This document shows, one piece after another, positions 1,160 to 37,702 of a stretch of 64,000 nt of DNA. A program made the translations under genes and the position numbers. The notes beneath the pieces were generated by a model that was not told the DNA's origin, did not search any database, and saw only the letters and a list, made by a program, of their open reading frames with translations. Origin of the DNA: Paraspadella gotoi (Eukaryota; Animalia; Chaetognatha); the NCBI GenBank assembly GCA_051294375.1, contig CM119263.1, positions 31,070,949 to 31,134,948 of the forward strand, written 5' to 3'. Numbering within the stretch: the stretch's first letter is position 1; each line of letters opens with the position of its first letter.

Positions 1160-1369
1160 TTTTTTAATTTAATAATTATAATCTTATTTTATTTTTATGC
1201 AGCTGGAGCCGGGCATTTTTATTTCGCCTCCGGCTCCAGCTCCGGCTCCGGTCAAAAATTTTTTTTGGCTCCGGCTCCAGCTCCGGCCAGATAAAAATTC
1301 TGGCTCCGGCTCCGGCAAAAAAAGCTCAGCTCCGGCGACTCAAGCTCCGGCTCCGGCTCCACATCCCTG
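1160..1369. mobile_element. End of a non-autonomous DNA transposon (MITE) with (GCTCCG)n subterminal repeats, truncated by the N gap
   Basis: Repeated GGCTCC(A/G)GCTCC units end in ACATCCCTG, which reads CAGGGATGTGGAGCCGGAGCC on the minus strand (hAT-like CAGGG terminus). It interrupts the BEL gag ORF and supplies its apparent SRSRS tail. Confidence 0.55.
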
Positions 1370-7149: not shown

Positions 7150-10100
7150 ATCGTCTGCGCCGTCGGATGCGAAATCTTTTACTTGGAAGTCGACGATGAC
7201 ATTCGCCTCCGGGGATCAGTGGAGATGGCGCACGAGGTCGCCTGCCTCGACATCGCTTCTTGGCCTTCGGAGGCTGGAGATTCAGTGGTAATCCCGATGA
7301 TGATGATGATTACGTAAATATTTATCATTCATCCTCTCTCTTCATCCTCTCAGCGAACCCTCTGCGCCGTTGGTCTGTGGACGGAGATCTCGGCGCGGGT
7401 GTTGGCGCTGCCGTCGCTGGAGCAGCTGCACACAGAGATGTTGGGCGGAGAGATCATCCCGCGTTCGGTGCTGATGACGACCTTCGAGGGAACCCCGTAT
7501 CTGCTCTGCGCTTTGGGTAATTCTACTTTCCATTTGCATATTGTCGTAATCGACAAAAAAAAATAAAAATACGGCGTAATCCTATTAGTCACAAGTTTAG
7601 CGATATTTATGTTTCTTCGAGAGGCTAGCGCAGTTATCATACGTCACCTCGGTCCACTCTTACTTAATTTTATTGGCGCTTATATCTTATTTTTTAGAAA
7701 ATCAGAATTTTTTTCTTCTCACATTTGACTATTTTTCATAATATAAATTTCTGGATTTTAAATGTGATATTGTACTACATTAGAATTTAAGTAAGTAGAC
7801 AGAGATGTTAGTATGTACATGTAGTCGGGCATTGCAATATGTTCACCCCATCTTTAAGGCCTGGGATCACTCGCCAAAAGTTATAAATAGGGTAACACAA
7901 AGCTTGGATTTTGAAAGTAGAGGTCCAGTCGATTCCGAAAATGTATTCACTTTACTATTTCTTCAAAAACCGTTGGTGTTTTTTTCTAATTTTATATTAC
8001 TATATAAAATAAAAGAAACCTATCGGAAGAGTTGCAGCCCAAACGGCGAAGCGGATTTTGATGAAATTTAACATAATCTTACTTGAGGTGAAGGTCCCCA
8101 ATTCTATGAGAGGGATTTTCCAAATTCACTTTTCTTCATAGAAAAAAAAGATAAGGAAATTTTGGCGTTAAAATCTAAATATCTTGAAAACGAATAACAT
8201 TTTCAAAATCCCTCTCATAGAATTTCTCTCACATTTTCCGATACTAACGAAAAATAATTTTTAGTTATATTTTTTTCAAACAGTTTTCGCTCCAACTACT
8301 TTTTTGTTTATTTATTTATTTTTTTTTTTTTTTCTGTAGATTTTAACAGAATGAAAGTCGAGCAAGAACTTTAAAATCGACGATGCTTTTGTAAATCTAT
8401 TTTCATTTCTATTTTAAATGATAGGCTTTACCGTTCTCTCTGAAGTTTTATGCCAATTTTTTAATTTTTTTTTTAAAAATTTAAAAAAATGCTGAGAACC
8501 CAAAACACGGACGAGGAAACAAGGAGGAATGCTGCAAGGGGTTACTTATTTTGCGTCTGTGGCAAACGGTCAAGCTTTAAAGCCAGTTTTGAATGTGGGG
8601 AACAGAAACTAATTGGAAGAGGAGAGCATAACGATTGTCCATAGCAGTGGAATCAGTGACCATCTATGGCACCATAGAGAGTTTCTATTTCAAGAGGATC
8701 GATTGCAGATGCCAATGGACGATTGTCTTTGACTTTTAAAAATTGATACAATTTTTGTATTACTCTTTTTAGTAAAAAATGGTATTAGGCATCAATTAAA
8801 TATGTATTTTGCACTCTCTCTACATAAACGTTTATATTGTTCATCGCTTAATTTGAATCCAATTACATCATAAAGAATGACTAGGTTTTAGGTACTAGTA
8901 TTACATCTGAGGTAGCTGATGTTAAATTGAATAATAAAGAATTAAATTCGCTTTTAAAAATGACTTTACCGTCTTGAATGAAATTTTTTAAGTTTACCGA
9001 TAAAAAAACTTGCCGATTTTTGGGTGCTCTTGAAGCTGAACCTTAGTCAAATTTGAAGTTTTTTTATTTGAAACACGAAGGAATATACTTCTTTTGCATA
9101 AAAAAATTTGTATAAAGCATTTTATCAATTTCTTGATGTTGAATGATCCCAGGCCTTAAGCATATAACCTTCATATAACCCGGTGGCTCATTGAGTAATA
9201 ACATCAGCTCATGACTGTAATAATTAGCTTATTAATTAAATCATCAGTTATTCTATGAACCGCCAAAATATATAAACTACTAATAAAATATTTTTAATTA
9301 CAATGACCATTAGGTACCGGGATCGATCCCCAATGGTACCTTCCCTGTGGGAACCGTGAGGACGACCGTAAACCGCCTTGGGGGCCTGGAAAACCCCCAA
9401 GCCTGGTTCCAAGCCCATGCCCCATTCCATTGCTGCTGGGGGGGCACGGAAGTTACGGATAGTAGTCTTCAACTCACTTTGCGCCTTTTCCCCATACATA
9501 TTACAAATATTGAATTTATATGTAGGGGACGGCTCTTTGTTCTACTTTCTCCTTGACACGGCGACGGGCGTCCTTTCCGATCGAAAGAAAGTCACTCTGG
9601 GGACGCAACCTACGATCCTTCGAACCTTCAAGTCCAGCGGCGCCACCAACATCTTCGCTTGTTCCGACAGACCGACCGTCATTTATTCGTCCAACCACAA
9701 GGTGGTGGGGGAAAGTCCGACTTTCTATAGTTTCTCAAGTTTCCTTCAAGCTAACGAAACTCTCTCTCTCTCTCTCTCTCTCATCGGATCTCCCTCCCTC
9801 TCCCCTTCTCCCTCCCTCCTTCTTCCCTCTCTCTCTCTCTCGTCACATCACACACACAGCTCCTCTTCTCCAACGTGAATCTCCGCGAGGTCTTATTCAT
9901 GTGCCCCCTCAATTCTGCCGCCTACCCCGACTCGATGGCGCTGGCCGACGACGCCGCCCTCACCATCGGCACCATAGACGAGATACAGAAGCTGCACATC
10001 CGCACCGTCCCTCTGGCGGAGAGTCCAAGACGAATCGCGTATCAAGAGTCGTCGCAGGTTGGTTCATTGAGAGAGGTTGCGGGAATAGGGAGGATTTTGG

Positions 10101-13100
10101 CGGGAATAGTAAATGAAGGGTTTGACATCACGCGCTTTCTTGCATGAATTTTTAAATTTGATCAAAAGGTAATATATTGAAATACCGGTCAAATGCGTTT
10201 TTCTTCATCGTCAGACGTTTGGTGTGATTTCTATTCGGCTCGACTACTTTGACGGGACGCAACCGCTGCCCTCGCGACCCTCGGCCTCGACGACCGCGTT
10301 AAACACCACCTCCAGCGCCAACACCGTCAAAGCTGGATCGGCTGGACCCGGTCCCGGAGAATTACAGGTGACCTTGACAATTATGACAATGTAGACTTTG
10401 ATAAATACTAAAATATATCGGTTATTTTATTTATATTATCTTATTCATCCTTGTTACTTATAATTATTATATGTGGACGCACGAAAAATTTTAATTATTT
10501 TCCAGGCGAAAAAGCATTACTTTAGTTTCCAAAGAATACCTTCTGTCTTGTTTTTGTTTCCGCTCATTAATTATTTAAATTTAAAGTTTAAATGGTAGAC
10601 TTTGAAGCTTCGGAAGTCATTCGATAAGTTAATAAATGTAGTTAATAAATCCTCCACTCTTATTTCTCTTGAGGTCGGCGACGAAGTTGAAGTTCATTCG
10701 CTTCTCATCATCGATCAACACACTTTCGAAGTCTTCAACGCCCACAGATTAATGCAGAACGAGTTTGCCACAGGTGACTCAAGTTGTGTTGGTTTGGTGA
10801 CTGAATTGTATCGAACTTTCGATGGAGAATTTAAAAAAAAAAAGAATGTAATCTCTTTTTTGTTCAGCACTTATTTCGGCCCAGTTCAGTGACGATCCTC
10901 TTCAGTATTTCGTCGTCGGAACCGCCTTCATCTATCCCGAAGAACCCGAGCCTAAGCAAGGAAGGATCCTCTTGTTTCACTATGCCGACGGAAAGCTCTC
11001 CCAGGTAAGTCTTCAATTTTTATTTGTTAATCATTATCATTGACGTAAAGTATAAATAATTATCGATAAACCGAAAAATATTAATAATATTAAACTCTGA
11101 AACCAAAATGAACCTATCGAACTTCATTACTACGAATGTTAATGAGATTGAGAGATTAGACTTTTGCCACTCCCACTATACGTCGCCAGGTGGCGGAAAA
11201 AGAGATCCGCGGCGCCGCTTATTCTTTGGTGGAATTCAACGGGAAACTCCTCGCCTCTGTCAACTCGACCGTTCGACTCTACGAGTGGACGAGCGATAAA
11301 GAACTGCGGCTGGAATGCTCTCACTTTAATAACATCATCGCTCTTTACTTAAAGACAAAGGGTGAGTTTAAGTCAAATTTCCATTAGAATTTATAATAAT
11401 TTTAGTATAAAAATAAATCTATTCATTTAGATTTGACTTGTCTTACTCTTAGTACGAGGTAGTGTTGTGGTGTGGTGTCCAAAATTTTTGGTACTCGCGG
11501 AGCAACTCTATAAGTCACTTTTCAGTCGGTCTGTTGATCGGTATGTCTGTCCGTTAAAAATGCATATAATTCGCTTATAAGTTATAGTTGGTTGCTCATT
11601 TGTTAAAACAGGAAAAAACTCAAATCTAAGGGACTGCTAGCGCCGCTTTCAGGAAATACTAAAACTATAAGGAATAAAAGACTCGATGTATAAATACAAT
11701 GGCTAAGAAAGTTTTTTACTCATATCATGTCATAATATGAAATTGGTACAACCAATATAATTAAATATGATTAAAGGGAAATACATATGAAAATAAAGTC
11801 ACTGCGGCGCAACAGATTGTATTCACCGTTCTTGTTTCGACATAAGAATTCGGTTCAAATTTTTTTAGTCAAATGTCCTATATTGCAATATGTAAATTGA
11901 TTTAAGTCGCGAGTCCTATTTTTTCAAAGGCGACTTCATTCTCGTTGGAGATTTGATGAGATCCGTCACCCTTTTGGCCTACAAATCTATGGAAGGCTCC
12001 TTCGAGGAAATCGCTCAGGTATTTTGCGTTGAAATCGATTGATTATTGATTGATTGATGTAATCATTGAGAAATAAAACGCCATTTAATTGAAACGCAAA
12101 TAACGTGATTTGAGGATTTCAACCCGAACTGGATGTCGGCGGTGGAGATTCTCGACGACGACACTTTTATCGGCGCCGAAAACTCATACAATCTCTTCAC
12201 TTGTCAAAAGGATTCCGCCGCCGCCACCGACGAAGACCGACAGCATTTGCAGGTTTCGTTCGGGAGAATTATTTCATTTAGAGATACCTTAAACCACCAA
12301 AACATGTCCAAAGTCAGGGGCAAGAAAGCTTATTTATTAAATGAATGCATATTTTTTATATTGTTTGTATCAATTTCATAGATTAAAATATAATAATACA
12401 TTTTATTTATTTATTTTTTATTAGATTATAACAGAGGGATATCTCTGTAAGAGAATGGTTATTGGTTACCCTAATTATACATGACATCGGTTAATATAGG
12501 TTCAGTGGATATTTAATTAGTGACTTAATGGTAGGGGGAGGAGCAATACTTAAAATAAAACTATTTTATTTATTATCCCAGCGGGGACGTTTTTAAATGA
12601 CGTAGTAGTATAATTACAAGATTTTTAAGCGCCATTAAGCCCAATGAAATTACCCTATTCTTTGCGCCATTCGAATAAATCTACTGTAATATGCAAATTA
12701 GGTCGAACAAAAAAAAATTACAAAAATTGGAAGTTTTAGATCAACTATGATAAATAATGACTATATCTAATGATAAACTAGTTCAAAGTAATCTATACTA
12801 GCTAACTAACCTCTAAATTACCAACTTTTATGAAATAATTATTATCTAAAAAGACTAATAACCTGACTCCTAGCTATGTAATTTCCTTTCTTTTCGTTGC
12901 GTTTCGGAATTTGTGTACCAAGCAGAGATTTTTTATTTTAACTCCTAGCAAAAAACTAAACAACAAATTTATTTCAAATATTATTGCTAACAAGAGAATT
13001 AAGACAACGTCATAAAATCAAGAACATTAACAAAGTCATTCATTTCAAATGTTTTCAATATGTATCTTTGTTAAAGTAACTAAGTCATTTTTTTGGGAAA

Positions 13101-16100
13101 GGAAGCGAAAGAATTACATGGGTATAAAACTTTAAAATACAGTCTTTGTTTTATTTCTTTCATTTCGTTGCGTAGGTAATAAAGTAGTTTTTATTTTTAT
13201 TTTATACAATGAATGTAATTAGTATGAAAAACGGACATGTTTCGGCTATATTGTTAGCCTTATTTTCTCTTTCTCTCGGATCACCGGACGGCCGATCTCG
13301 AATTCAAACTCGCTGGCATAGAAAACCAATCAATTTTTCTGCAGTAAAAACTACAAAAATTGCTGCGCAAGTCTAGATTAAAAAAAAAATCTAAACAAAA
13401 CATAATAAAAAATTGTTCAGTAAATGGTCAGTCTTTTCACGTGACATTATATGACCATTTCTAGCCGCTTTTTAAGTCGCTGGCTGTAGAATAACTTACC
13501 CGAATCACAAAAATCAGCACGAATGATTTCCCCTCGATCATTTTACTCTCTCCCTCTTTTTCCTACCTCAATTTTAACTGACCCCGTACGATCACGTCTC
13601 TTTTTCCCGGGTCAACGTTAACATTCTCATGAGGCCTATCAAAGGTTCATAATTGTTTTTCTATAGAGTAAAATCTGATAATATTTTCTCATTCAAAACC
13701 GTCATTTAATTTTCGCCATTTATCTCTAATAAAAGCCCTTGATTTACATCCAAGATTTCCGAGTATGCGGAACCACAAGAGTATGTCCAACATTTATTTC
13801 TTCGATATTACGGCTCCGTTCTTCGATCGGCAACATTTTTTAAAACTTTTTCTCTCGGATTCTCCCCTCTCGAAAAACGCACGATCACGCAAGAGATCGT
13901 ACAGGCTTGAGGTTTTTTTTAATCATAATTAGTTAAAATTGATCATTCGTGAAGAATCAAATTTAAAAAACTTGTGGGCCTTCAGGAACCGTAGTTTTTA
14001 CTGTAAAAAATTTTTATTATTTTCTATGCCTCGAGGGTCGCGCGTTTGATGCGTCGGCCGTAGGATGAATAGGCTTTGAAAACAAATTTAACATGGAGCA
14101 AGGATTTCTAAATTTCAAAGAATGTAAATGTTGAATAAATGACGAATAAATCGTGAATAAGTTTTTCATAAAGAATAAATGAATGGCCAAATAAATGTAC
14201 AAAAAAATTGTTTTGAAAATCCTTAGATTCCGTAAAAACTATGGTTTCATATGGCCGATCTTTTACTGATAAACGATTATGATAAAAAATGTCATGAGAA
14301 AGCTACTAGAACGGTAAAAAGACTGGGTTGAAAAGGTCAACTGAAACGACCGAGGAAAAATGACCGGTCCCAAAATCTTTCAATTACTTAATAATTATTT
14401 ATCTTATTGAAGGCAGAATAATCAGGAAACTTTGTTTACAAACAACGATTTATTTAAAACGGACATGTTTTGGCTCTAATTGCAAGACTTCATCAGCGCG
14501 AAATACGTAGATTGTAATAATTTTTTTGGAGAGAGAGAGAAAGGAAAAAAGAGAGAGAAATACAAAAAAATTTAGAGAGGAGAGATATTAGAGATGAGGA
14601 CAGCTGAAGATAAGGTCAGATAGGAATGGAAGAACAATGTTGCACCGAATTGTATGTCTCCAAGAGGCATAAAGTATGACGAACATAAGATGGGAGGCGT
14701 TTTTACGATCTTTTCCTAGATGTTAGTGTAGCAGAATAATTTGTGGTTCATTTCAAATGAGATTGAGTTCTTCAATCTCATTTACATATTGTAGTGGTTT
14801 AGACCATTTCTCATATCTTTTCATACAGTTTTCATAATAGTCTTGTTTTATGGATTTAGCAATAGTTTTAATAGATTTTAATAATGATTTAGTTTTCCAA
14901 TTATTATTCAAATATTTCATAGTAGTATTGTTGCTTTATAAATGGAAGTATTTTTCTTGTTCAAGTAGAACAGCAAAAAGAACAATGCGAGCATTCTACC
15001 ACTAACCATAAGGTCAACAATAAATAATAATATAAGATGCCCCCCGTTAGATTAGCTACTGTAATACTTCAGTATCTAAAATCTAAATGTTCAAGTAAAA
15101 TTTAAGAACTCGAAAACAATTGAAGAGCCTTTTGTTTTCAGATAGTTCCGCTAGGGAAATAACAAAGAAATAAAGAGAAGGAAAAAAATCATATTAATTT
15201 AATCGTTTTAAATTGTTCGCAAAGAATTGTCAACATATTTTGTTCAATTGTTATGGTAATTATTTTATAAAATGTTAGTTACATCTAAAATTTACGTCCC
15301 CGCTGGAATCGAGCGGTGCTCCGACCCCTATTAATGGTTTGAAGGCTACTAGACTGGCTTCTTGGTAAGACTAATGAACTAGAGAGTTAGGCTTGCAATG
15401 TATTCAAGTATAGACCTAAGATAGCATTTACATGTTATTATCTTAATGAGTGCTAAACCTAAGTGTTGAGCTAGTCGACCCTTGTAATCCTAGCTGACTA
15501 AGGGGTACTTCTCTGAGAATGTTTTTCTTACTAAACATAGAAAGGTCAGCTGGAATCACAAGAATAATTAAAGTTGTAAACTAGCAATTATGATTGAGGA
15601 ACTCGATCTCATTTCAGATAATTCCCAAATTAATCTGCTTCAGAGCGTCACAACCACAGGAAATTAAAACGTCCTCGTTTTATAAAGTTCTTGACAAAAC
15701 GCAATGGATGAAAGTTCCTTTATTGTATGAGAGAAACGATGAGTGGTTGGCGATAAGATGACCACAAATTGTAGATGAGAAATTAACGATTGATGAAAGG
15801 TTGGAGATAAGGAAAATTTGATGATGAAAAGATCACAAATTGAAGATGAGGTGAAGAGAAAATTGGAGATGAAATGATCGCAAAAATTAGAAACCAGTTG
15901 TAGAAAATAGATTAGAAGATAACGAATGTTTCTTTTATACAAATTTAATAAAAATTAGAAAACACTTACCAATGGTGCCGATCAAAGGCAGGCAAGGCTT
16001 GATATCGTTTTGGAAATTTATAAAATGTGGTACCCCTTTTTTGTGACCAGAATCTGTTCCCACCAAAGTACTCGATCGAATTTTATGAAATTTTACATAT

Positions 16101-18186
16101 ACAGTCCTAATGACGATATAAATGGAACTATCGAGGCGAATTTTGATATTCAACCCCTGACAAGAGATACAGGGTCCTGGGGCTGGACCCCTGGGGGGCC
16201 AAAAAAGGCTAAATTTTTTTTTTTTTTTTTTTAATATTGACGTCTTAAACATGTAAAAAAACATTTTAAAACTAAAATTGATAAATTTTCAATAATTAAG
16301 CATTTTTTGAAGATGCATGGTTCATCGTTTTACTTCCAATTTTCCAAAATTATTCCAAATCTGACTTGAACAGCTGATGTTCATGTAGATGAAAATTAAG
16401 GTAAACTAACATTTTTGAGGTAATAAATAGGTTTTTGTGTAAGAGTAAACGTCTGTGCAACTGTTCAAAACAAATATATTTGAAAAATTTGTAAAAAAAT
16501 TTTGACCATTTTTTGCCCCAATGTGTGACCCCCAGAGGGCCCATATCTCGGCTCAGGGGTCAATTATTGAAATTCGCCTCAATATTTCTATTTGTATTCA
16601 CATAGAGATTGTTCATTCCAAATTTCAATAAATTTGGTCCAGTAGTTTTCTCAGAACGTGTTCTGGTCACAAAAAAAGGGTACTATGGCAACAGCCGGGT
16701 TGCCTGTGATGCCCATTGGGATGGGGCATCTCACTGTTGGCTTTGGGGGCTTCCGACCCTCAGTGACGCCTCCAGTCACTGGCGCGGTTACCCTAGGACG
16801 GTCTCGCTTTGCCAACGCAGAGGGAAGTCGTTAGGACTGTGGATGGAACACTATGCCTGGGATGGTGTGTTCCCCCTCTGAGCCAATGGATTTGGCTGAA
16901 GGATGGTGGACGTGAGGCGGTGTGAATATACCGCCACAGTACCACATTTTATAATATGAAGCCTTCTGTATATAATAGAAAGAAAAATAAGGAAAGAGAG
17001 CTTACCAATGGTGCATTAAAGCAGGCAAACCAAGATGGGAGAAAAGAATGAATCACGAACAAAACTATTGATATCTGGAATATTTTAAACCTTAGGGCAA
17101 CGGGGAGACATGTATGATGCCCTGGGTGTGAGGCATCTTCCATGTCACTGGCGTGTTTATGCCGACACCATCACATTTAACCAGCGTGACCGTGAGGGGA
17201 ATGAACCCGGAACTTACGCTTGGTGAACGAATACTTAGCTATCCAAGCCAATGGGACGAGCTGAGCTATACGGAAGGCGAATTCGCCACAACCTACTGCT
17301 TATCAAAATAAATCAAAATACGACGACATATAAATAAGATTGAGACACAAACTCTGCCACTTGATTCCATTTCTTTCCCTTCTTTTCTCCCCACCCTCTC
17401 CAGGAAGTTGGCCTCTACCATTTGGGCGAGTTTGTCAACGTCTTCCGCCACGGTTCCCTCGTCATGCAGAACTTGGGCGAGTCAGCGATGCCGACCCAGG
17501 GCTCCGTCCTCTTCGGCACCGTCAACGGCACCGTCGGACTCGTGACCCAATTCCCCGCTGAGCACTTCAACTTCCTCAAGGAGATCCAGGACCGGCTGGC
17601 CAAGGTCATCCGCAGCGTGGGCAAAATCGAACACGCCTTCTGGAGATCGTTTCACACCGAGAGAAAGACGGAGCAGACGAGCGGATTCTTGGACGGAGAT
17701 CTCATCGAGAGTTTCCTCGATTTGAGTCGAGACAAGATGTTGGAAGTCTGTCAGGGGCTGCAGGTGATGTAAGGGAGGCTGCAGGTGGCAGGTCTGCAGT
17801 TGATGTAGAGGAGGCTGCAGGTGATGTAGGGGTCGGCTGCAAGTAGCAGGGATGCAGTTGTAGGAGAGGGGGAAGATGACGAAAAATTGGATGCTCGCTG
17901 ACGGAAAAGAAAAATGTAAATATTCGGTTGTATTAAAAATATGAAAATTATAAAAATGTTTTAATTTATCGGTCTCCTTCATTTATCATTTTGGGCTCTA
18001 TTTTTGATATTTGTTATTAACTTTATATTAATTATACGTTCCCTTTCTTCCCCATTTTTTCAGATTCCCTTTTCGACGAGTACGGATTCTACGAGTCAAG
18101 CCACGCCCACCAACGAATCGTGCAAAAAGGAAGCCACGCCCGAGGATTTGATCAAAATCATCGAAGAATTGAATCGAATTCATTAA
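7150..18186 (+). CDS. DDB1: DNA damage-binding protein 1 (3' half; upstream exons not visible in the window)
   Basis: Exons 7150-7287, 7354-7516, 9526-9701, 9860-10057, 10215-10367, 10674-10773, 10868-11004, 11190-11361, 11930-12018, 12115-12252, 17404-17763, 18064-18186. Motifs [55 protein letters not shown]; C-terminus IIEELNRIH. Confidence 0.97.
7858..9155. mobile_element. Non-autonomous Kolobok-like DNA transposon in a DDB1 intron
   Basis: TIRs GGCCTGGGATCA...TGATCCCAGGCC with TTAA on both sides (RR/YY termini plus TTAA TSD). Internal inverted repeat at ~8100-8224. Confidence 0.7.
11484..11836 (+). mobile_element. Short HINE-like element
   Basis: T-run followed by GCGGAGCAACTCTATAAGTCAC and a degenerate GTCY microsatellite; 3' end ...TATTCACCGTTCTTGTT. 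Confidence 0.4.
12577..15307. mobile_element. Old CMC/EnSpm-like non-autonomous element carrying nested repeats
   Basis: Inverted termini CCCAGCGGGGACGT (12577) and ACGTCCCCGCTGGA (15307), each flanked by AT (2-bp TSD). No transposase ORF. Confidence 0.45.
16018..16954. mobile_element. MITE with long imperfect inverted arms; right TIR interrupted by a solo LTR
   Basis: TTATAAAATGTGGTACCCCTTTTTTGTGACCAGAA versus TTCTGGTCACAAAAAAAGGGTAC[insert]CACATTTTATAA; arm similarity extends ~200 bp. Confidence 0.75.
16684..16938 (-). mobile_element. Solo LTR (255 bp) of the TRIM-like family
   Basis: Homologous to both LTRs at 34533-35240; flanked by a GTAC duplication (16680-16683 and 16939-16942). Confidence 0.85.
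17085..17262 (-). mobile_element. Possible tRNA-derived SINE
   Basis: Minus strand has A-box-like TGGCTTGGATAG and B-box-like GGGTTCATTCCC at tRNA-like spacing; no full cloverleaf. Confidence 0.4.
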
Positions 18187-18378
18187 CAATTTTTATTTAA
18201 AAAAAAAACAAATAAACAATAAACATAACTGAAAGACTAACATAATTACATTACGATGTTTCGACGTTCCTCCCCCTCATCATCCCTGTTGCCATATTTT
18301 TTTTTTTATCTAAACAATGTTTTGTTTTATTTCTCTCACCAGAGGCGCTCGGATAACTAGTTTCCCACCTTAAAAACA

Positions 18379-20042
18379 ATGTGTACGTTAACTTTTTCGC
18401 TCATCTTTTTCTCCCAAACTCTCCTCTTTCCCACCGTCCGCCCACGCGCCATCCTTCCCACCGCGAAGGCACCACCGGACGATCCGCTTAAGCGTTCCGA
18501 GAACGTTCTTTTCAAGCGTCCCGTCGACGATCCCCTCCACTTCCCAATCAAACATGAAGACTCGCCCAAACCGTCCGACCCCGACCCTCGCCTTCAAGGC
18601 CTCCCAGCCCCCGTCGTCGATCAGGTCAAGAACGACAAAGAGATCGACGACCTTCTCCCTCCCGATCACATCGACGCCGTCCGCCTCGAACAGGACGGCG
18701 ACCTTAACCAGGATTTCCACAAGGAGGTTTGTGGCGGAGTAACTTGTGATTTAATTCAAATAAGATTTAGCTCTTCGATCTCATTTGCATATTGGAGCAT
18801 TTTAGATTATTACTTTTATTTTTTGATTCGGTAAAGATTTCAATTTCCAAATAATATTTAGATATTTTATTGTTTGTTTTGGTGGAAACAACGGCAAATT
18901 TATTAGAAATAACAAGGGAATGTTTCGACTAAGTTGATCAACTTCACAAATGGATGTACTTTTCTCATTTTGAAAGACTGCCTCATGGTTATTTTTAAAG
19001 GTTAGGATATTAAGATTTTAGCGTCGGTGTTAACCTCTGTAGTAGTATGTTCTCTTTCTGAGCTTAGTGCGAGCTTCTTCTACCAATTTTAAGATCTGTA
19101 AAGTGAGGAATGTTTCTGCCTCAGGTATTCCTCGGGAACCACGAGGATCTCGAGTCTCGTGGCGCCAACGAGACCGACAAACTCTTGGCCGTCATCTTCG
19201 ACAAAGTTGACGCAGATTCGGACGGCGCGTTGACGGAGCAAGAACTCGACGACTGGATCTCCGTCAAGATCAAGGAACACATCGACGAAGCCATTCGAGA
19301 GAACAAGGAGAAGTTCGAGACTCTGGACTCCGATAAGGACGGATACGTCTCCTGGAAGGATTATCTCAAGAACTTTCTCGTAGAAAGGAAGTTTCCGTCA
19401 GAGTTAGCGGAGAGACACACGGACGATTACGAGACGCTCAACTTGCCCGACGATCTTAAGGACAAAATCGCGCGATTTAGATTTAGGTCGGATTTGTTTG
19501 TTTGCCGTTGTCGTCGTCGTTTTTGTCCTTATATTTTTTTTTTTTTTTTTTTTTTGCTTTGTAGGTGGTCCGAGGCGGACGAGGAGCCCCAGGATAACCG
19601 ACTGACGGAATCCGAGTTCCTCGCCTTCATGCATCCCGAACACAGCGTGAAGATGCTGCAAATGTGGGTGACGGACATCATGCGCGGACTCGACGCGGAC
19701 GGTGACAATGAAATCACCGAAGCCGAGTTCGCCGCTTTGCCCGAAGGACAAGTGGACGAGCAATGGGAAGAGACTGATCGAAACTGGCAGGCGCAGCGTC
19801 GACGCGAATTCGTCGACGCAATCGATCTGAACGGAGACGGGAAAGTCACTAAGGACGAACTTACCCTCTACGTCGATCCTAAAAACTCCAAGCACGCCAA
19901 GGATGAGGCGCACAATCTCATCGAACTCGTGGACGCGGACCGGGACGACAAACTCTCTCTATCGGAACTGCTTGCCAGGAAGGACATCATTCTTTTTTCC
20001 AAGATGGTCGACACGGGACGGAGTCTGCACGACGAGTTTTGA
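18379..20042 (+). CDS. SDF4: 45 kDa calcium-binding protein Cab45 (CREC family)
   Basis: Exons 18379-18726, 19125-19486, 19565-20042. Signal peptide, [28 protein letters not shown], multiple EF hands, C-terminal HDEF. Confidence 0.95.
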
Positions 20043-21247
20043 GAGGGAAAAACATCTTCTTTTCTTTCTTTTAGATTTAGATTTATTTATGAAAAATTCT
20101 AGAAACGGACGCGAAGTTAGTTTTAGTTAAGGTGAGTAGTAGATAATAATTTAAATGATAGTAAATTTAAGTACTAATATTATAGTAATTTCTGAATAGT
20201 ATTCTTTCGCGATTCGATCGGAAGAAGAAAAGGGGATTGAAAAAAGAACTAGCCTAATTAATAAATATTTGAGACAAAATTAAAAGATGGCGCTTCCGAG
20301 TTTCCTGTGAAAGTGTAACACCCGAGGCTTGTTTTCGGCCAATTGAACTTTTAAATGAAAGATGCCATCTATTTTCTTTTATGGTTTTTCCCTCAAATGC
20401 TTAATCTGATGTTGAAAAAAGGGCTGTGTTAAGGGAAGAAAATTTCGCCTTTAAATTCCAAGGATGAGATTTCGACTCCTTTTGCAAAGGCCGTGTTTGA
20501 ATTGTGAGCTGGTCAAAGTTTTGATCGCGGTCAACCCTGAACTGTCGCGGATGTGGGCGTAAAGGAGATCACTTCAAATTGTACAAATACAGGATTTTTT
20601 GGTGTCGTAACTGAAACAAAGAATGAATTTATAACTGTTTGGATTCAAGAAAATCACTCTGCGGGAAGGCTGGCTGTAAAATAGTTATATTTTTGAATTG
20701 TAAGTGAAGAAGTACTTATGTAGCAGATTATTATTATTATTATTATTATTATTACTTATTAGTCTAAGGCGTTAGCATATGTAATTTTTTATTTGTTTTG
20801 ACGGTAAAGAAATATTTTTATATAATTAAACTACTTTTTTATTTTGTTGCTGTTTTTCGTTACTGAATACTGATGGTGATACCAAATAAATCGTATTTTA
20901 AGATTTCCATTAGAATTAATTATTGTATGAATCCGGAATCTGAATATTTTGTATCTTGAAAAGAATAACCTTAACGTCCATACGATTACAAAACATCATC
21001 CCACCTTTGTTGATTTTTAGCGAATTTTTTCCGAATTCTCCATCGAAATACATATTATGTACTCGATCCCGATTTGAGTCCCAAATCGGATGACTTGATC
21101 CTCTTCGTTCTTCGATCGAGATCATTTCCATCAACATTGCTCGATCGCACTAAAGTTTTGTCGCGCTTTGAAGACAAATCCGTGATTAGCGAGAGAGAGA
21201 ATCCTTTATTTTTCAGTTGCCTCGCGTCCCTCGATTGGATAAACTCG

Positions 21248-21287
21248 GAAGAAGAAGAAGAAGAAGAAGAAGAAGAAGAAGAAGAAG
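21248..21287. repeat. (GAA)n microsatellite in the probable SLC39A9 5' UTR
   Basis: About 13 GAA units. Confidence 0.9.
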
Positions 21288-21453
21288 CCGATTCCCTTTG
21301 AGTTAAGATCTAAAAAAAATGTGTGAAAGAACTTAACACCTTTCGCTCTCAGAGAGACAGAGACGATTCCCCGGCCGGCCGTCGGCTAAAGAAACTATGA
21401 ATTTTTGAACGAACATATTTTTAATCGATTAATAAACTTAACTAACGGTCGTC

Positions 21454-23788
21454 ATGGAAACCCAAACTGCCACGGAGGTCTTTTCCAACTCTTCCACCAT
21501 CGTCTTGCTGTCGTTGGCGATGCTGTTCGGGTGCTACTTAGCCGGAAGTATTCCTCTAGGTATATGTCCAAGCATTGACAGCAGTCGTTAACCCTCTTTA
21601 TATTTAGTTATTAGCATTTGATTAATTTATTTGGGGAAGCCTTTTCGCTCTCCGAGGATCGCCTCCATCTTGTCTCGGTGCTCGGTGCGGGTCTCTTGAT
21701 CGGTACGGCGTTGGCCGTCATCATCCCCGAGGGTGTCAACGCCCTCTACATGGACACCGCTCTCCATGACCAACACCACCACCATCATGACCTTCATTTC
21801 AGTCACGAGCACGCTCAAAGGTATCACCGCTCCTTTCTCTCACAGTGGATGAAGGTGAACTTCACAAAACTTGTCTTTTTCTCCCAGTGTCGTGTTGGAG
21901 CCAACGGATTCTCCGAAAAGAAAAGTCCTAGGTATTGCAGAGTCGAAGGTTTTTATTTTTAGACGAGAAAAGGAGAGAAGTTTAAAAAGATCATTTTCTG
22001 TTTAACTTTTTGGTCCAGCGGACAGCATTCCTTCTAAAATCGAGTTCAGTCAAAAAGAAGAACCCGTTAAAGAAATCGGCGATGTACATTCATTAATAGG
22101 TGAGCAGATGAAAATACAAAGTCAAGGGCAAGATAGCTTAAATATTTTAAATGAATGGATAATTTTGATATTGGTCGTTGTGGCGGTATAATCGCACCGC
22201 CTCACATCCACCATCGTTCAGCCAATCCCATTGGCTCGGTGGGGGAACGCACCATCCCAAGCGTTGCGTTCCATCCACAGTCCGAACGTCTTCCCTCTGC
22301 GTTGGCGAAGCGAGACCGCTCGAGGGTAACCGCGCCAGTGACAGGAGGCGTCACTGAGGATCGGAAGGCCCAAAGCCAACAGTGAGATGCCCCATCCCAA
22401 TGGGCATCACAGACAACTCGGCTGTTGCCATAGCGTAGCAATTTCATAAATAGAGTGATTATTCTTCTTGTCTCCACCAAGGTTTAACGCTAGTGTTGGG
22501 CTTCATCTTCATGATGTTGGTGGATCAGTTGTCGGCGAGCGCCGGACATTCTCACTCCGGCGACGGATCATCATCCTCTTCCTCTTCCAATATCACGGCG
22601 ACTCTTGGTCTCGTCGTCCACGCAGCCGCCGACGGAATCGCACTGGGTGAGGAAGAAGGATGGTTTATGGGGAAAGTGAAGGAGAAAAAAAGTTATCTGG
22701 GCAATATACATAGAATATGTGTATAGAGTATGTATATTATATATATTATACGTATATTATATAATATACATACATATCAAAATTGTAAAAAAATAAAATG
22801 AAATAATGAATGTAGCGTAAGAGGATAATCCATGAGTTATAATCTGAATTATTATCGTTTTATTTCAAGGCGCCGCTGCGCGGTCTTCTCACACTGATGT
22901 GGAGATGATCGTTTTTATTGCCATCATGTTGCACAAGGTAGGAAAGAGAGAAAGTGATTTCATCATCATCATCTTTCTCTACTTTTCATCTCTCCATCCC
23001 CCGCTCCCTTTTTTTGGCTTCCAGGCCCCCGCTGCTTTCGGCCTGGTGAGTTTCCTCCTCTCCGAAGGCCTCGATCGAGGGCGAATCAGGCGTCACCTGA
23101 TGATCTTCGCCGCTGCAGCGCCTATCACCGCCATCCTCACTTTTTTTGGTCTCAGTCAACAAGTAAGGCGGGGTGGGGGCGCGCAGGGTTGGGGTAAAAG
23201 GGGAATTGAAAAAGGGTCTTCCTCTAATTATACATAATCTTACGTAATCTTTGTTTAATTTTATGAGACGGAAACTTCTCAAGTGCGTTTTTTAAAAAAA
23301 AATAGTATTCAGTATTCTATAAACGAGTTACTTTTTAGTTTTTTTGGTTTTCTTAATAAATTTTTTTTATGGTTTCTTATTGCTGCCAGTTAACCTGTAC
23401 CCTTTCCACGTTTCTCACATTCAGAGCAAACGGAATCTATCTTCTAGTCACACGACTGGAGCTGCGATGCTCTTTAGTGCTGGCACTTTTCTCTACGTTT
23501 CTACAGTTCATGTTCTCCCCGAAATCGCGAGATTGAGGTCGGTGCTACAATATTTGATTGATTAGTACTTGAAATTTGTCAATTTTCATGTCAGTGAGAA
23601 GAATTGAAGTTTCTAGATTATTTATACAGTAAAATAAAACCTACAGGCCCAACAATCCCGGCAGCCCATCCTCGATGGAACTTGGAAAAGCCTCAACCGG
23701 CGTGGGTCATTTCAACAAGAAAGAACTCTTGGTCATCGTGGCGGGGGCCTTGCTTCCCATGCTACTCTCTTTGGGTCATCATCATTGA
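21454..23788 (+). CDS. SLC39A9: Zinc transporter ZIP9
   Basis: Exons 21454-21559, 21640-21820, 21888-21931, 22019-22099, 22482-22646, 22870-22937, 23025-23162, 23425-23537, 23647-23788. Motifs [45 protein letters not shown]; ends GHHH. Confidence 0.95.
22179..22432 (+). mobile_element. Solo LTR (254 bp) of the TRIM-like family, inserted into another short repeat
   Basis: TGTGGCGG...GTTGCCATA flanked by TCGT/GCGT. The empty site can be reconstructed from uninterrupted copies of the host repeat at 42737 and 53459. Confidence 0.85.
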
Positions 23789-32525: not shown

Positions 32526-33218
32526 CGAAGCGCGACGATGACGAAGGCCACGGAGCGTCGCGAGTGACGATGGAAAGATTTGGCGCGAAATGAAGAAAAG
32601 AGTAACAACAACAATGTGCCGAATTTTTTTTTCCATCGAAACTTGTACCATCCCAATTCAAATTATCGCCCTAATGACATTCATAGCGCCAATGATTTAA
32701 TACTATTAATATGAATAAGTTTTTTTTTTCGCTTTCGCCCGGTTTTTCCTACACTCGAACTAATACTTCTAAAGTCTAGTTAAAATGTCCGTAAATTTTA
32801 AGGCGTTGAATCTTTTTTCTTTTCATGTTAATTTTGCGGTTTTTTGAAAGAGAGAAGAGAAGCGTTGAATCGTTTTAATCTTCGGATGCCCCGATTCCCT
32901 GATTGCCTTTCCTCGAAAAAACTCTTGAAATTCCATCGTAGCTAAAAAGTTTCAACTGACTTTTGGATCGAAAGAAGCGAATCGCTTTTCAACACAATCT
33001 TAATTTTTTTTTAATCTAGAAAAAAAGGAGTCCGTTAATTGCGTTTAATATCGTATCGAATTAGGCTTGTTAATAAGAAAAATTATTTAATTTTTTTTCT
33101 TTAATTTTATTTATATGTTTGGTTCTTCTTTTTTTTCTATTGTGTTTGGGTTTTTTTCTGAAGTCTCCCGCTGGCCGGAACCTCGCATGCTCTTGACATC
33201 CTTAGCCCCGCGACTCGC

Positions 33219-36200
33219 ATGAGCGTGGGTCCGCTCATGCGCGGCCCTCTTCGGCGCGCCTTCGCTCACGCCTACCATCATGGAGACCCCAACACGAGGT
33301 TCCGCGACGCCGTCGCCACCGCAGCCGCCGCCGCGGCGTTTCCTTCTAGTCAAACCGCGTCGTGGACGCGCCCGCCGCTTCGCCGAGCGACGGCGGCGGC
33401 GGTGACGACTTCGTCTTCTTTCGAGACGGACAAATTGACGGGCGACGCCAACGCCAACACCAACGCCAAATCGTCGTTTTCGTTGCCGAGACTCGGCGCC
33501 ACGCCCAAATCACTCTACCAGGAGAGGATCTCCAGCGGAGAATTGAACAGCGACCCCAAACAGGTCAACGTCGTGGACAGACTCGACGCCCTACACAAAC
33601 AGTTGGGCTCCTACAGTTCGTTTCCGCCGGTCAGCGACGCCATGAACTCTTTGTTGAAGTGAGAATATTTTTTTTTGGGGGGGAGAGAGCGAGAGAGAGA
33701 GAGAAGACCTGAGGTTGCGCGTTGTTTTGTTTGTTTGTTATTCTAATTAAATTTAAATACGTAGACTTATATAAATGTTATAATGTCAACAAGTAAAGCA
33801 ACTCTAAAGATTAATCATAGCGCATTTTATATTAATTGACCTATTCTTCAACTTTCACCCAATTACTCCTCCTCCTCCTCCAGAATGATCGGCATGAAGA
33901 AAGAGCGCTCCGTCTCCACCGCCTTCCACGATCCATCCGTCCCTCGCGGCGTCTACATCTACGGATCCGTCGGTTGCGGGAAGACGATGCTGATGGACCT
34001 TTTCTACGCCACCTGCTCCAGAGTCTCCAAGAAGCAACGCGTCCACTTTCACTCCTTCATGATCAACGTACACAAGAAGGTGCATTCGTTGAAGAAGGAG
34101 ATAACTCCCCGGACGTCGCAGACGGGAGGGTTCGATCCCATCCCCGCCGTCGCCGCCGCCATCGCTAATAAATGCACATTGATCTGCTTCGACGAGTTTC
34201 AGGTTTTGGGCGGCTGAGTTTAAAGGGGCTTATTTTGGCTCAACACACCGCGGCTTGACTCGTTCTAGGTGACGGACATAGCGGACGCGATGATCCTCAA
34301 ACGTCTCTTCGGCGAGCTGTGGAAGCACGGGGTGGTGGTTGTGGCAACGTCGAACCGACACCCCCGCGATCTCTACAAGAACGGGCTGCAAAGATCAAAC
34401 TTCTTGCCCTTCATCGATCTCTTGCTTTCCCACTGCCAGGTTTGAGGCAACAAAGAAACTGACATTCTCATTTGTAAACATAAAAAAAATACGTGCCATA
34501 TTGATCTACCAATTAGGATATAAAGTATACGTTATGGCAAAAGTCGCGCTGCCTGTGATGCCCATTGGGATGGGGCATCTCACTGTTGGCTTTGGGGGCT
34601 TCCGATCCTCAGTGACGCCAACGCAGAGGGAAGTCGTTAGGACTGTGGATGGAACACAATGCCTGGGATGGTGTGTTCCCCCTCTGAGCTAATGGTATTG
34701 GCTGAACGGCGGTTGACGTGAGGTGGTGTAAGTATACCGCCACAGGATCCCCGGGCCAAGACATCACTCAGGTTCCTCAAGCCTGAGAGGTGTGTGACAA
34801 GACAGTTACCCGAGTGGTAGAGAGAGAGAGAGAGAGAGAGTGCGAGTTGTGGAGGCATAGGTGTTTGTCATAGCATACCCCAGGGGCATAGTCGTTTGTC
34901 ATACTTACCCGAAGTCGGCAGGGCATAGGCATTTGTCGTAGCATACCCTGAGAAGGTTGCGTGTTCGATTGTAGGGCTCACAACTTATGGCAACAGCCCG
35001 GTTGCCTGTGATACCCATTGGGATGGGGCATCTCACTGTTGGCTTTGGGGGCTTCCGACCCTCAGTGACGTCTCCAGTCACTGATGTGGTTACCCTTGGA
35101 CGGACTCGCTTTGCCAACGCAGAGGGAAGTTGTTAGGACTGTGGATGGAACACAACCCCTGGGATGGTGTGATCCCCCTGTGAGTCAATGGGATTGACTG
35201 AACGATGATGGACGTGAGGCGGTGTGAATATACCGCTACAACGTACTTATTCGTAGTATTTCATTTATTTGTAGCAGTAATTTTTTAATAATTACAACTG
35301 TTAATGTCCGATCCCCTAACAATTAAAGGTGGTGCACCTCAACTCAAACGTCGACTATCGCGTCCAATCCGGCGTCTCGGCCGGCAACACCTACTTCCTC
35401 ACTTCGGTTGGCAACGCCAACGCGCAGATGGACAAAACCTTCCGCGAGTTGTCTGCCAAGCAATACGACACGGTGGTCAAACCGGCCACCGTCCGAGTCA
35501 TGAATCGATCCCTCGTCTTTCCCAAAACCTGCGGGACTTTGCTTGACACGACATTTGCCGAATTGTGCATCAAGCCGTTGGGAGCCGTGGATTACTTGGC
35601 CATCGCTAAGGAATTCAGCGTCGTTTTCGTGCGAGGTCCGGTTCTTGGTTGAGTGGCAAAGGGAATGGCAATCAGTTGCATAGAGTAGAAAATGTGTGGC
35701 TAAGAGTGGCTAAGAGTTTCCAAAAAAGTGGCGAAAAAGAGCATGAGAGATTTGAGAAATGGTAAACAATATCTGAGATGTGTCAAATAGTAGCAAAGAA
35801 GTGGCAATTTTCTGCGTCCTTCAGTGCAAAGATCTCCTTACTTTTTCTCCCGCTCCCGTAGACATTCCTCGCATGACGCTGAAGGACAAGTCGGCAGCCC
35901 GGCGCTTCATCACCCTCGTTGACACCCTCTACGACGCCAAGATCCGCCTTGTCTGCAGCGCCGCCGATCACCCGGAGAAACTCTTCTCCAACGTAGGTGA
36001 CGACTCACTGCAGGTGAGGCTCTTAACACGGGGGAATTTGTGAAGTCGGTCGGTCTCGAGCCTGGTCATTGCTCTACGTCCAATAGTAGTTCTAGTTGTT
36101 TAATAACGTGAATTTTATGTTCAAAATTGTTCATTTATTTACAACAAGTTATTTATATTTGACTTTTTTATATTTAGGAACAAACTTCGTCCCGAATGCT

Positions 36201-37143
36201 GCGTGACGATCTCAAGTTGGGAAATCAGGTGAAGAAAAAAATATCGATTTTGTCGATTGAATGGAGGGGGTGGCGGGGAGGGGTGAGCCTGTAGGGGGTG
36301 GCGGGGAGGGGTGCGCCTGCTTTTAAGAACGCAATAGCTTTAACTTTTAACTCGCGAGCTCCCTTTTTCTTTCATCACTCTAATAACGACAACGGCGAAG
36401 ACTTTCCAGTTATATTCAATCGTTTATATGTCTATGTTTACGAACCATCGCTTTGTTAACAATTTTTGTCATCAAATACAACCCCACCCTCGAAAAGGGA
36501 AGTTATTCGGGCGAGGGACACGAAGAGGTTTTCGCCTGGAGTCGAACCGCGTCGCGGATGAAAGAAATGCAGACGACTTCATACTGGAGGGCTTCGGAAA
36601 TGCGGCGCCGCTGAAGGCGCCAATTGCTGCGGCGCTGATATGAAAAATGCCGCTGCTTCTAAGGCTGAATTAGCGACGGCGCTGACAAATTTTCGTTTCG
36701 GTCCGAAATCGAAATTCCGTCGTCCAGTCTGAGGATTTAATGAGATTTTCCTTCCCTTCTCTCGCTCACCTTCTCTTTTTCCCTCTCTCCTTCTATTCCC
36801 CCTCTCTCCATCTTCTCCCCTTTTCTTTTTCCCTCTCTCCTTCTATTCCCCCTCTCTCCATCTTCTCCCCTTTTCTTTTTCCCTCTCTCCTTCTATTCCC
36901 CCTCTCTCCATCTTCTCCCCTTTTCTTTTTCCCTCTCTCCTTCTATTCCCCCTCTCTCCATCTTCTTCCCTTTTACCCCCTCCCTCCTTCTTCATCCAGG
37001 ACGTTTCGGTGGCTGCGATCTTCACCGGAGAGGAGGAACTCTTCGCTTTCGATCGCACAATTTCCCGATTGGCTGAAATGCAGAGCGCGCACTACTGGAT
37101 GGAAACGGACGAGAAGAAAGAATACGAAGACGATGGCTTTTGA
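33219..37143 (+). CDS. AFG1L: AFG1-like mitochondrial ATPase (LACE1)
   Basis: Exons 33219-33658, 33884-34202, 34269-34439, 35329-35635, 35862-36013, 36178-36228, then 37000-37143 (canonical) or 36498-36614 (alternative). [61 protein letters not shown]; Arg-rich presequence. Confidence 0.95.
34533..35240 (-). mobile_element. TRIM-like non-autonomous LTR retroelement (708 bp)
   Basis: Direct repeats 34533-34744 (with a 43-bp deletion) and 34986-35240 flank a 241-bp non-coding interior; ACGT on both sides. Confidence 0.85.
36498..36614 (+). CDS. Alternative (duplicated) last coding exon of AFG1L
   Basis: AAG acceptor, phase 0; [38 protein letters not shown] is homologous to exon 37000-37143. 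Confidence 0.7.
   Translation, partial: GSYSGEGHEEVFAWSRTASRMKEMQTTSYWRASEMRRR
36771..36970. repeat. 50-bp pyrimidine-rich minisatellite, four copies
   Basis: Unit TTTTCTTTTTCCCTCTCTCCTTCTATTCCCCCTCTCTCCATCTTCTCCCC. Confidence 0.95.
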
Positions 37144-37702
37144 GCCGATAGGCCATTTTTTTAGATAGAAAGCAGATAGCGAAATGTTGACATTCTATAT
37201 CCGGGTCAATCACCAAAAAATAAACCCCTTTTTGTTATGGAATTGTATTTGTTAGTAATACGAGATTTACTACTCTTTTTTTTAAAGCGCATCCTTGTTT
37301 TTGGCAATGAACTATTTTTTTGCATTTGCAGTAGAGACTTTAAAAGGGTTTGTTCCGACGTTCGATATGATGTGATTTAATCAGGACTGCGGCAAAAGTG
37401 ATAAGCGACGAAATTGTTCCGACGGATTTTTTTACCGGAGTTACCCATTTGCCCCAATCACGGCGACCAATTTTCCACTCCTACCAGTACCCGTGTTTTT
37501 TTGTTTTTTTTATACATATTTTGCATTTTTAGGAGCTATAAAAAAGCTATTGTCAATAACACTGAAACCGTCCTTAGTCTTTCCGCGATGTTGTAACCAA
37601 AAAACTAGTGGCCGACCGACCGACCATCCGCCGTTTCTGTCTTCGTCCGCGATCCCCAAAGAACAACGACAACCACCGATACAACACCTCCAGCGATTCC
37701 AA

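What the first reader, a model, noticed from the sequence alone, without database searches (positions are those of the whole stretch)
36498..37143. AFG1L has two homologous alternative last exons
Seen: after the phase-0 donor at 36228 there are two in-frame terminal exons. Exon 7a is [38 protein letters not shown] and 7b is [47 protein letters not shown]. Both keep the EExFAxxRTxSRxxEMQxxxYW motif despite strong nucleotide divergence, which implies selection on both. Their tails have opposite charge (basic versus acidic). I do not know of such isoforms for AFG1/LACE1. Exon 7a has a weak purine-rich acceptor and no clear AATAAA.
Basis: partly seen in the sequence, partly recalled or inferred. 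Interest (0 to 1): 0.7.

Follow-up and report, generated by a model that had tools for sequence, protein, structure and literature searches.

The report
Second, conserved tail for mitochondrial AFG1L
In this invertebrate, the gene for the mitochondrial quality-control ATPase AFG1L carries a duplicated copy of its last coding exon that is spliced in as an optional exon with its own stop codon; related species keep the same second ending, which likely yields a protein variant lacking part of an animal-specific surface.

Summary
The two homologous exons are real and both are spliced, but 7a is not a last exon. Contigs of RNA run X1 show three GT..AG joints: 36228>37000, 36228>36498 and 36700>37000 (one run only). 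So 7a is a 203-nt cassette whose stop lies 86 nt before the final junction, and 7b then becomes 3' UTR. Unnamed relatives (75-78% identical core, one clade, possibly chaetognaths) have both endings: 7a-type in 7 of 11 distinct cores, 7b-type in 6, both in 2. 7b is the ancestral form. All 8 7a-type tails keep the terminal RTxSRxxEMQxxxYW motif and a basic end, but lack the Phe of the 'IFTGEEE' motif found in 97 of 99 other proteins; two also skip exon 6. That region is a roughly 33-residue insert absent from bacterial ZapE. This is a new member of a known class, tandem-duplicated exon C-terminal substitution. My searches found no AFG1L case. The scan noted the same class in other genes and genomes, never in AFG1L. 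Protein and function are untested.

The parts
33219..33658 (+). AFG1L exon 1, coding part from the first in-frame ATG; likely holds the mitochondrial targeting peptide (inferred)
   Evidence: X1 contig ends its block at 33658; exons 1-6 give an open frame of 480 codons
33884..34202 (+). exon 2 (Walker A GxxGxGKT; Walker B region CFDEFQ)
   Evidence: Pfam AFG1_ATPase E 9e-23; motifs located; joint
34269..34439 (+). exon 3
   Evidence: Pfam AFG1_ATPase E 5e-22; joints
35329..35635 (+). exon 4
   Evidence: Pfam AFG1_ATPase E 3e-13; joints
35862..36013 (+). exon 5 (phase-0 donor)
   Evidence: Pfam AFG1_ATPase E 2e-9; joint
36178..36228 (+). exon 6 (51 nt, phase 0-0), the 'MLxDDL' segment of the animal insert; its equivalent is absent from the 7a-type proteins P0007 and P0009
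36263..36319 (+). G-rich intronic repeat after the exon 6 donor; can pair with the C/T array beyond 7a, by composition only
36498..36700 (+). exon 7a: 203-nt cassette, duplicate of the last coding exon; weak AAG acceptor, donor TCG|GTCCGA
   Evidence: joints 36228>36498 and 36700>37000 in X1
36498..36614 (+). coding part of 7a (38 aa plus TGA); predicted isoform A is 518 aa
36615..36700 (+). untranslated 86 nt of 7a, between the stop and the last junction
36765..36974 (+). C/T tandem array (50 bp x 4.2) in the intron between 7a and 7b
37000..37143 (+). exon 7b coding part (47 aa plus TGA): ancestral end, predicted isoform B of 527 aa; 3' UTR when 7a is included
   Evidence: Pfam AFG1_ATPase positions 327-358, E 0.0013; joints
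37219..37224 (+). AATAAA, the only candidate polyA signal, shared by both isoforms (use not shown)

Best explanation
Exon 7a is a tandem duplicate of the AFG1L last coding exon that is spliced in as an optional, stop-containing cassette, so the gene likely makes two mitochondrial ATPases that share their first 480 residues and differ in the C-terminal 38 or 47. Shown: both splice paths; homology; 7a-type endings in relatives; 7b is the ancestral form. Inferred: the duplication predates the split between this species and its relatives. Both ends keep the terminal helix motif that bacteria also have, so both forms would fold as ATPases and be imported by the same N-terminus. Isoform A has lost the IF half of an animal (and fungal) insert of about 33 residues that precedes this helix; two relatives drop most of the insert by skipping exon 6. 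Isoform A also ends in a short basic tail. The most likely effect is a changed docking surface (inner-membrane lipid, partner or client binding) on an unchanged motor, set by 7a inclusion. Using a cassette keeps one polyA site, which would suit a gene lying in an operon-like cluster (speculative).
For: Three GT..AG joints with no contig cover of the introns before 7a. P0008 and P0139 are identical for 391 residues, then switch to B or A endings at the exon 6/7 boundary. Window and relatives form one clade, 100/100. In tblastn against the window, 5 of 5 A-type tails score best on 7a (one only marginally, 50.4 against 48.1 bits), and 2 of 2 B-type plus 2 of 2 outgroup tails score best on 7b. In the tail tree, 6 of 8 A tails, window 7a among them, group at 97/100. 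Invariant in all 8 A tails: A..RT.SR..EMQ...YW. pS 0.74 against pN 0.31 between 7a and 7b. Phe at -14 is present in 97 of 99 non-lineage proteins with the motif and in all B tails, and in none of the A tails. Span from the 'LIDxLY' motif to 'SR': 37-39 aa in 15 of 15 measurable ZapE-named proteins, 67-74 aa in 91 of 91 measurable others, 51 and 54 aa in P0007 and P0009.
Against: No protein-level evidence. Splicing rests on one run, as contigs with joint sides under 31 letters. The stop lies 86 nt upstream of a junction, the layout of an EJC-dependent NMD target (model described in PMC1756896, passage read). A tails are much less conserved than B tails (mean pairwise identity 0.67 against 0.89 over the 24-residue motif), which also fits relaxed selection. 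A as a single clade is not shown: P0006 and P0134 fall elsewhere on a long branch, only 21% of bootstrap trees hold A together, and the AU test merely fails to reject (p 0.47; 39 columns). Only 2 of 11 cores show both endings, and the relatives are assembled proteins without DNA, so their exon layout is unknown. Tail charge varies freely in other animals. The changed-docking step is inference only.
Confidence: 0.65

Rival explanations
1. 7a is mainly a regulatory poison exon: inclusion puts a stop upstream of a junction and sends the mRNA to NMD to tune AFG1L level. The coding likeness is a remnant of the duplication.
For: Stop 86 nt before the last junction; weak acceptor; faster evolution of A tails.
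Against: The open frame, the same ten invariant residues and a basic end are kept in 8 of 8 A tails while synonymous sites are near saturation. The 7a contig has depth of the same order as the skipping contig (400.7 against 323.9; a weak hint, as contig depth does not rank forms). A forms were assembled as full proteins in several relatives. That flies and worms do not use the junction rule is recalled, not checked.
Confidence: 0.12
2. Isoform A is made but is a functionally redundant or slowly decaying duplicate. It is held only to the residues that any AFG1L end needs for folding, and has no distinct job.
For: A tails diverge faster (0.67 against 0.89), and the segment before the helix is barely conserved among them (0.17 against 0.80). 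It is joined after exon 6 in some species and after exon 5 in others. Single AFG1L tails in other animals vary in charge.
Against: Retention across a clade whose cores differ by up to about 25%. A consistent polarity: basic end in 8 of 8 A tails, acidic in 6 of 6 B tails; Phe lost in all A, kept in all B.
Confidence: 0.18
3. The window's 7a is real, but the relatives' A-type proteins come from paralogous genes, separate duplications or chimeric assemblies, so the conservation is only apparent.
For: 5 of 11 cores show only an A end and 4 only a B end. P0127 and P0135 look chimeric and were dropped. A is not recovered as one clade. If these are chaetognaths, gene duplicates are common (PMC2481426, passages read).
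Against: P0008 and P0139 share 391 identical residues. The switch point matches the window's exon boundary. A tails prefer window 7a over 7b in 5 of 5 tests.
Confidence: 0.05

Closest known systems
Tandem duplicated exon substitution events that swap homologous C-termini (77 of 236 human events; PMC9741552, passages and one supplementary file searched)
   Same: A duplicated 3' coding exon gives two isoforms identical except for a homologous C-terminal region, and the event is old and conserved.
   Different: Here the upstream copy is a cassette that splices on to the downstream copy, which becomes UTR. AFG1L/LACE1 was not found in that paper's text or held supplement (the file is small and may not list every event), nor in the supplement of PMC8373072.
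AFG1L/LACE1/Afg1/ZapE ATPases (Pfam PF03969; NCBIfam NF040713; PMC7314023, introduction and passages read; PMC5216971, passages read)
   Same: Same family: Walker A and B, and the terminal RTxSRLxEMQ helix. Described as an inner-membrane ATPase linked to turnover of mitochondrially encoded complex IV subunits, to Oxa1 and to matrix proteostasis.
   Different: The diversification described in the papers read is by whole-gene paralogs (trypanosome ZapE1/2). No alternative homologous C-terminus was found in the searches.
Stop-containing cassette exons coupled to NMD (poison exons; EJC model as given in PMC1756896, passage read)
   Same: Inclusion places a stop upstream of the last exon junction.
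   Different: 7a encodes a full, conserved replacement of the terminal helix rather than a truncation.

Membership tests
AFG1L/ZapE ATPase | Match to PF03969 / NF040713 above cut-off | tested here: met
   Window exons 2-5 pass the Pfam cut-off singly; 7b matches weakly (E 0.0013) and 7a alone gives no hit. Relatives with A or B ends score 292-318 bits in Pfam and 343-359 in NCBIfam.
AFG1L/ZapE ATPase | Walker A and Walker B motifs | tested here: met
   GxxGxGKT at residue 174 and CFDEFQV at 248 of the spliced frame
AFG1L/ZapE ATPase | Mitochondrial location and ATPase activity | not testable with these tools
   Only an N-terminal extension with few acidic residues was seen
Tandem duplicated exon substitution (C-terminal) | Two adjacent exons of one gene encode homologous peptides | tested here: met
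Tandem duplicated exon substitution (C-terminal) | Each is spliced to the same upstream exon, and only one is translated per mRNA | tested here: met
   Joints 36228>36498 and 36228>37000; the stop in 7a excludes translation of 7b
Tandem duplicated exon substitution (C-terminal) | Conserved across species | tested here: met
   Met at protein level; exon layout in relatives not available
Tandem duplicated exon substitution (C-terminal) | Both protein isoforms detected | not testable with these tools
   no proteomics available
Alternative last exon (own polyA site) | The exon ends in cleavage and polyadenylation, with no downstream donor | tested here: not met
   7a is spliced at 36700 to 37000, and no A(A/T)TAAA occurs before 37219; a rare terminal form cannot be excluded from contigs
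Mutually exclusive exons | The two exons never occur in one mRNA | tested here: not met
   A 261-nt contig joins exon 6, 7a and 7b
Poison exon (AS-NMD) | Stop well upstream of the last junction | tested here: met
   86 nt; the 50-55 nt threshold is recalled
Poison exon (AS-NMD) | The inclusion isoform is degraded by NMD | not testable with these tools
   Contig depths are of similar order for both forms but cannot measure abundance

The most novel reading that the evidence does not exclude
A whole invertebrate lineage, possibly the chaetognath phylum, uses a duplicated exon to switch AFG1L between the standard animal form and a form that has discarded the animal-specific insert, in two relatives shortening that region towards the bacterial ZapE length. 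The two forms have distinct partners or membrane contacts. This would be a natural experiment that marks the insert as the client- or partner-binding module of an ATPase whose mechanism is unresolved.
Probability: 0.3. Interest if true: 0.65.

Novelty: new member of a known kind. Interest (0 to 1): 0.42.

Why it matters
[quoted passage not shown] A conserved natural isoform pair that differs only in the last helix region points to a specific element, the exon 6 'DDL' segment plus 'IFTG', which nearly all other animals keep and bacteria lack. It can be tested directly by swapping tails in yeast or human cells. As a splicing pattern it is an ordinary, known way to diversify proteins.

Tried and rejected
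No whole genome is held, so no within-genome paralog check was possible. A word-indexed search with 7a alone found no candidate (weak evidence). HMMER search of the 50% representatives with 7a gave one hit, P0262, a repeat ORF scored by summing 8 weak stretches; rejected as an artefact. Metagenome scans found no locus of this lineage: none confirmed, or at most 47% identical, so relatives' exon structure and codon dN/dS could not be obtained. Runs X2 and X3 laid nothing on 35840-37400 (no proof of absence). No listed run is on record as RNA; X1 is taken as RNA because of its GT..AG joints. No joint from exon 5 to 7a and no read-through past 36700 was seen in X1 (contigs drop rare forms). P0127 and P0135 looked like chimeras of other cores and were left out of all counts of cores and tails. 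P0001, P0187, P0192, P0198 and P0199 end before the tail motif, apparently by intron read-through, and give no tail. G-rich/CT-rich pairing across 7a is strong (-67.7 kcal/mol) but equal to shuffles (mean -68.0; 111 of 200 as low), so it is not a specific structure. The two AlphaFold models (A type: pLDDT 70.5, 18 sequences; B type: 82.9, 50 sequences) used different alignments, so the lower confidence of residues 365-397 in A is not evidence. Fold searches place the N-domain with DnaA/DnaC/IstB-type AAA+ domains (best Z 16.6); the C-terminal part was barely tested, and a few alignments that reach residues 406-414 are only a hint that the last helix packs against the ATPase domain. No Rfam match in the window. 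Taxon look-ups gave no names; supplements of PMC12460157 did not name these genes. The window row was invalid (exon 1 boundary off by one) and was redone. Passage searches of PMC6173133 and PMC3962487 returned only reference-list hits on EJC dependence. No complex prediction was run.

Full report
Gene and observation. The region holds an AFG1L-family gene on the + strand. Exons 1-6 (33219-33658, 33884-34202, 34269-34439, 35329-35635, 35862-36013, 36178-36228) give an open frame of 480 codons, with Pfam AFG1_ATPase matches on exons 2-5 and Walker A and B motifs. They are homologous beyond chance: 14/31 identical, E 7e-11. 7a is the only other place in the 64 kb that 7b matches (36.6 bits against 18.9 for the next hit). 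In the 24-codon core the two share 43 of 72 nt, with pS 0.74 and pN 0.31. This is a small sample, but it is the pattern of an old duplicate kept for its protein.

Splicing. One public run, X1, holds the stretch (RNA is the tool's guess). Its contigs show GT..AG joints at the introns between exons 2 and 6, and three joints here: 36228>37000 (depth 323.9), 36228>36498 and 36700>37000 (one 261-nt contig, depth 400.7), with no cover of the introns before 7a. So 7a is an internal cassette of 203 nt. Its stop lies 86 nt before the last junction, and when it is included 7b is untranslated. This explains why 7a has no polyA signal: the only A(A/T)TAAA up to 37720 is at 37219. Limits: one run, one study, contigs rather than reads, joint sides of 26-30 letters (under the tool's bar of 31), and depths that cannot rank isoforms.

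Relatives. A search with exon 2 returned nine clusters at 68-72% identity, all unnamed assemblies, well above every named animal. Their members were fetched. Over a core of about 275 residues the window is 75-78% identical to them, and together they form one clade at 100/100. Grouping by core (7 or more differences) gives 11 cores including the window, after dropping P0127 and P0135 as probable chimeras. A 7a-type end occurs in 7 cores, a 7b-type end in 6, and both in 2: the window, and P0008/P0139, which are identical for 391 residues and diverge at the exon 6/7 boundary. Against the window, 5 of 5 A-type tails score best on 7a (P0139 only marginally), while 2 of 2 B-type and 2 of 2 outgroup tails score best on 7b. 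A 39-column tree groups 6 of 8 A tails, window 7a among them, at 97/100. The other two lie on a long branch; A as one clade is neither rejected (AU p 0.47) nor shown (21% of bootstrap trees). I infer one duplication before these species split. No DNA of a relative could be fetched, so the cassette layout is shown only for the window. The taxon is not given. An animal clade with no named member and an operon-like gene cluster suggests chaetognaths, for which operons and trans-splicing are described (PMC12460157 and PMC2481426, passages read). This is my inference, about 70%, and is not tested.

What differs between the ends. All 8 A tails keep A..RT.SR..EMQ...YW, the helix motif also present in ZapE-named bacterial proteins (output). 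A tails evolve faster than B tails (0.67 against 0.89 mean identity over the motif). After the Trp, A tails are net basic (+2 to +4; 8 of 8) and B tails acidic (-2 to -5; 6 of 6), but other animals range from -7 to +6 (window values read). The sharper difference lies upstream. The Phe of 'IFTGEEE' is present in 97 of 99 non-lineage proteins that carry the motif (111 examined) and in every B tail, and in no A tail. So 7b is ancestral and 7a derived. That motif belongs to an insert. The distance from the 'LIDxLY' motif to 'SR' is 37-39 residues in 15 of 15 measurable ZapE-named proteins (16 examined), and 67-74 in 91 of 91 measurable others (109 examined), all 91 with a 'DDL'-type segment, which in the window is exon 6. 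Two A-type relatives, P0007 and P0009, lack the exon 6 equivalent as well (51 and 54 residues). In the B-type model the insert is a low-confidence helical region (pLDDT about 60) before two confident terminal helices. No solved relative was found by sequence, and the fold searches speak mainly to the N-domain.

Mechanism. Best reading (0.65): regulated inclusion of 7a swaps the protein's end, giving isoform A (518 aa) or B (527 aa). Both would keep the motor and its terminal helix and be imported by the same N-terminus. A lacks an intact animal-type insert and has a basic end, which most likely alters docking to the inner membrane, a partner or a client. Splicing, homology and conservation are shown; translation, location and function are inferred. 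Rivals: a redundant or decaying duplicate (0.18); a poison exon (0.12), since the stop lies upstream of a junction as in the EJC model (PMC1756896, passage read); and apparent conservation from paralogs or chimeras (0.05). Two side ideas are speculative. A cassette avoids a second polyA site in a gene whose last exon runs into the next gene on one contig. A G-rich tract and a C/T array flanking 7a could pair and favour skipping, though only by composition.

Comparison with what is known. Duplicated exons that swap homologous C-termini are a described class (77 of 236 human events; PMC9741552, passages). AFG1L/LACE1 was not found in that text, in its held supplement (with TPM1 as a positive control; the file may be partial) or in the supplement of PMC8373072 (main text seen only as a listing). 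Searches for AFG1L with isoform and splicing, LACE1/Afg1 and chaetognath with AFG1 (0 papers) listed nothing on such isoforms; subscription papers and bioRxiv supplements are outside the library. Family function is taken from PMC7314023 (introduction and passages) and PMC5216971 (passages). Earlier notes of this scan list duplicated last exons in other genes and genomes, and none in AFG1L.

Verdict. Real, spliced and conserved; architecture corrected from alternative last exon to stop-bearing cassette; a new member of a known kind. Interest 0.42, mainly because the isoform pair singles out a testable module of a poorly understood mitochondrial ATPase.

Noticed in passing
window about 9400-46300: A run of closely spaced + strand genes: CPSF_A-domain gene (DDB1-like, name recalled), EF-hand gene, probable ZIP transporter (recalled), TRIP13-like, TCF25, DFRP_C gene (ZC3H15-like), AFG1L, a kinase (aPKC-like, recalled) and a sulfotransferase. 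X1 contigs run unbroken from the ZC3H15-like gene into AFG1L, and from exon 7b into the kinase's first exon. This is operon-like, although a contig across two genes does not show one transcript.
   Followed up: partly
window 33120-33163: A T-rich tract ending in AG about 55 nt before the AFG1L ATG, inside a stretch that X1 covers without a splice: a candidate trans-splice acceptor.
   Followed up: no
proteins P0006, P0133, P0134: P0006 and P0134 have identical cores but clearly different 7a-type tails, while P0133 differs from P0006 at 2 core positions and 1 tail position. That species may have a third copy of the exon.
   Followed up: partly
proteins P0002, P0004, P0005, P0008, P0128: B tails of the relatives have Trp in 'FAW' like most A tails, whereas window 7b and most outgroups have 'FAF'. 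This may be gene conversion between the tandem exons.
   Followed up: no
window 36263-36319 and 36765-36974; also introns at 33659, 34203, 35636: Several introns have G-rich 5' ends and C-rich 3' ends that can pair; the pair around 7a is the strongest but is explained by composition.
   Followed up: partly
window about 34540-35240: Intron 3 holds a high-copy, partly duplicated repeat with contig depth of 9,000-23,000 in X1; similar text appears near 16606-16881 and 22202-22483.
   Followed up: no
window 1326-3160 (- strand): Two long ORFs (241 and 375 aa) that look like a retroelement gag region by eye; not searched.
   Followed up: no
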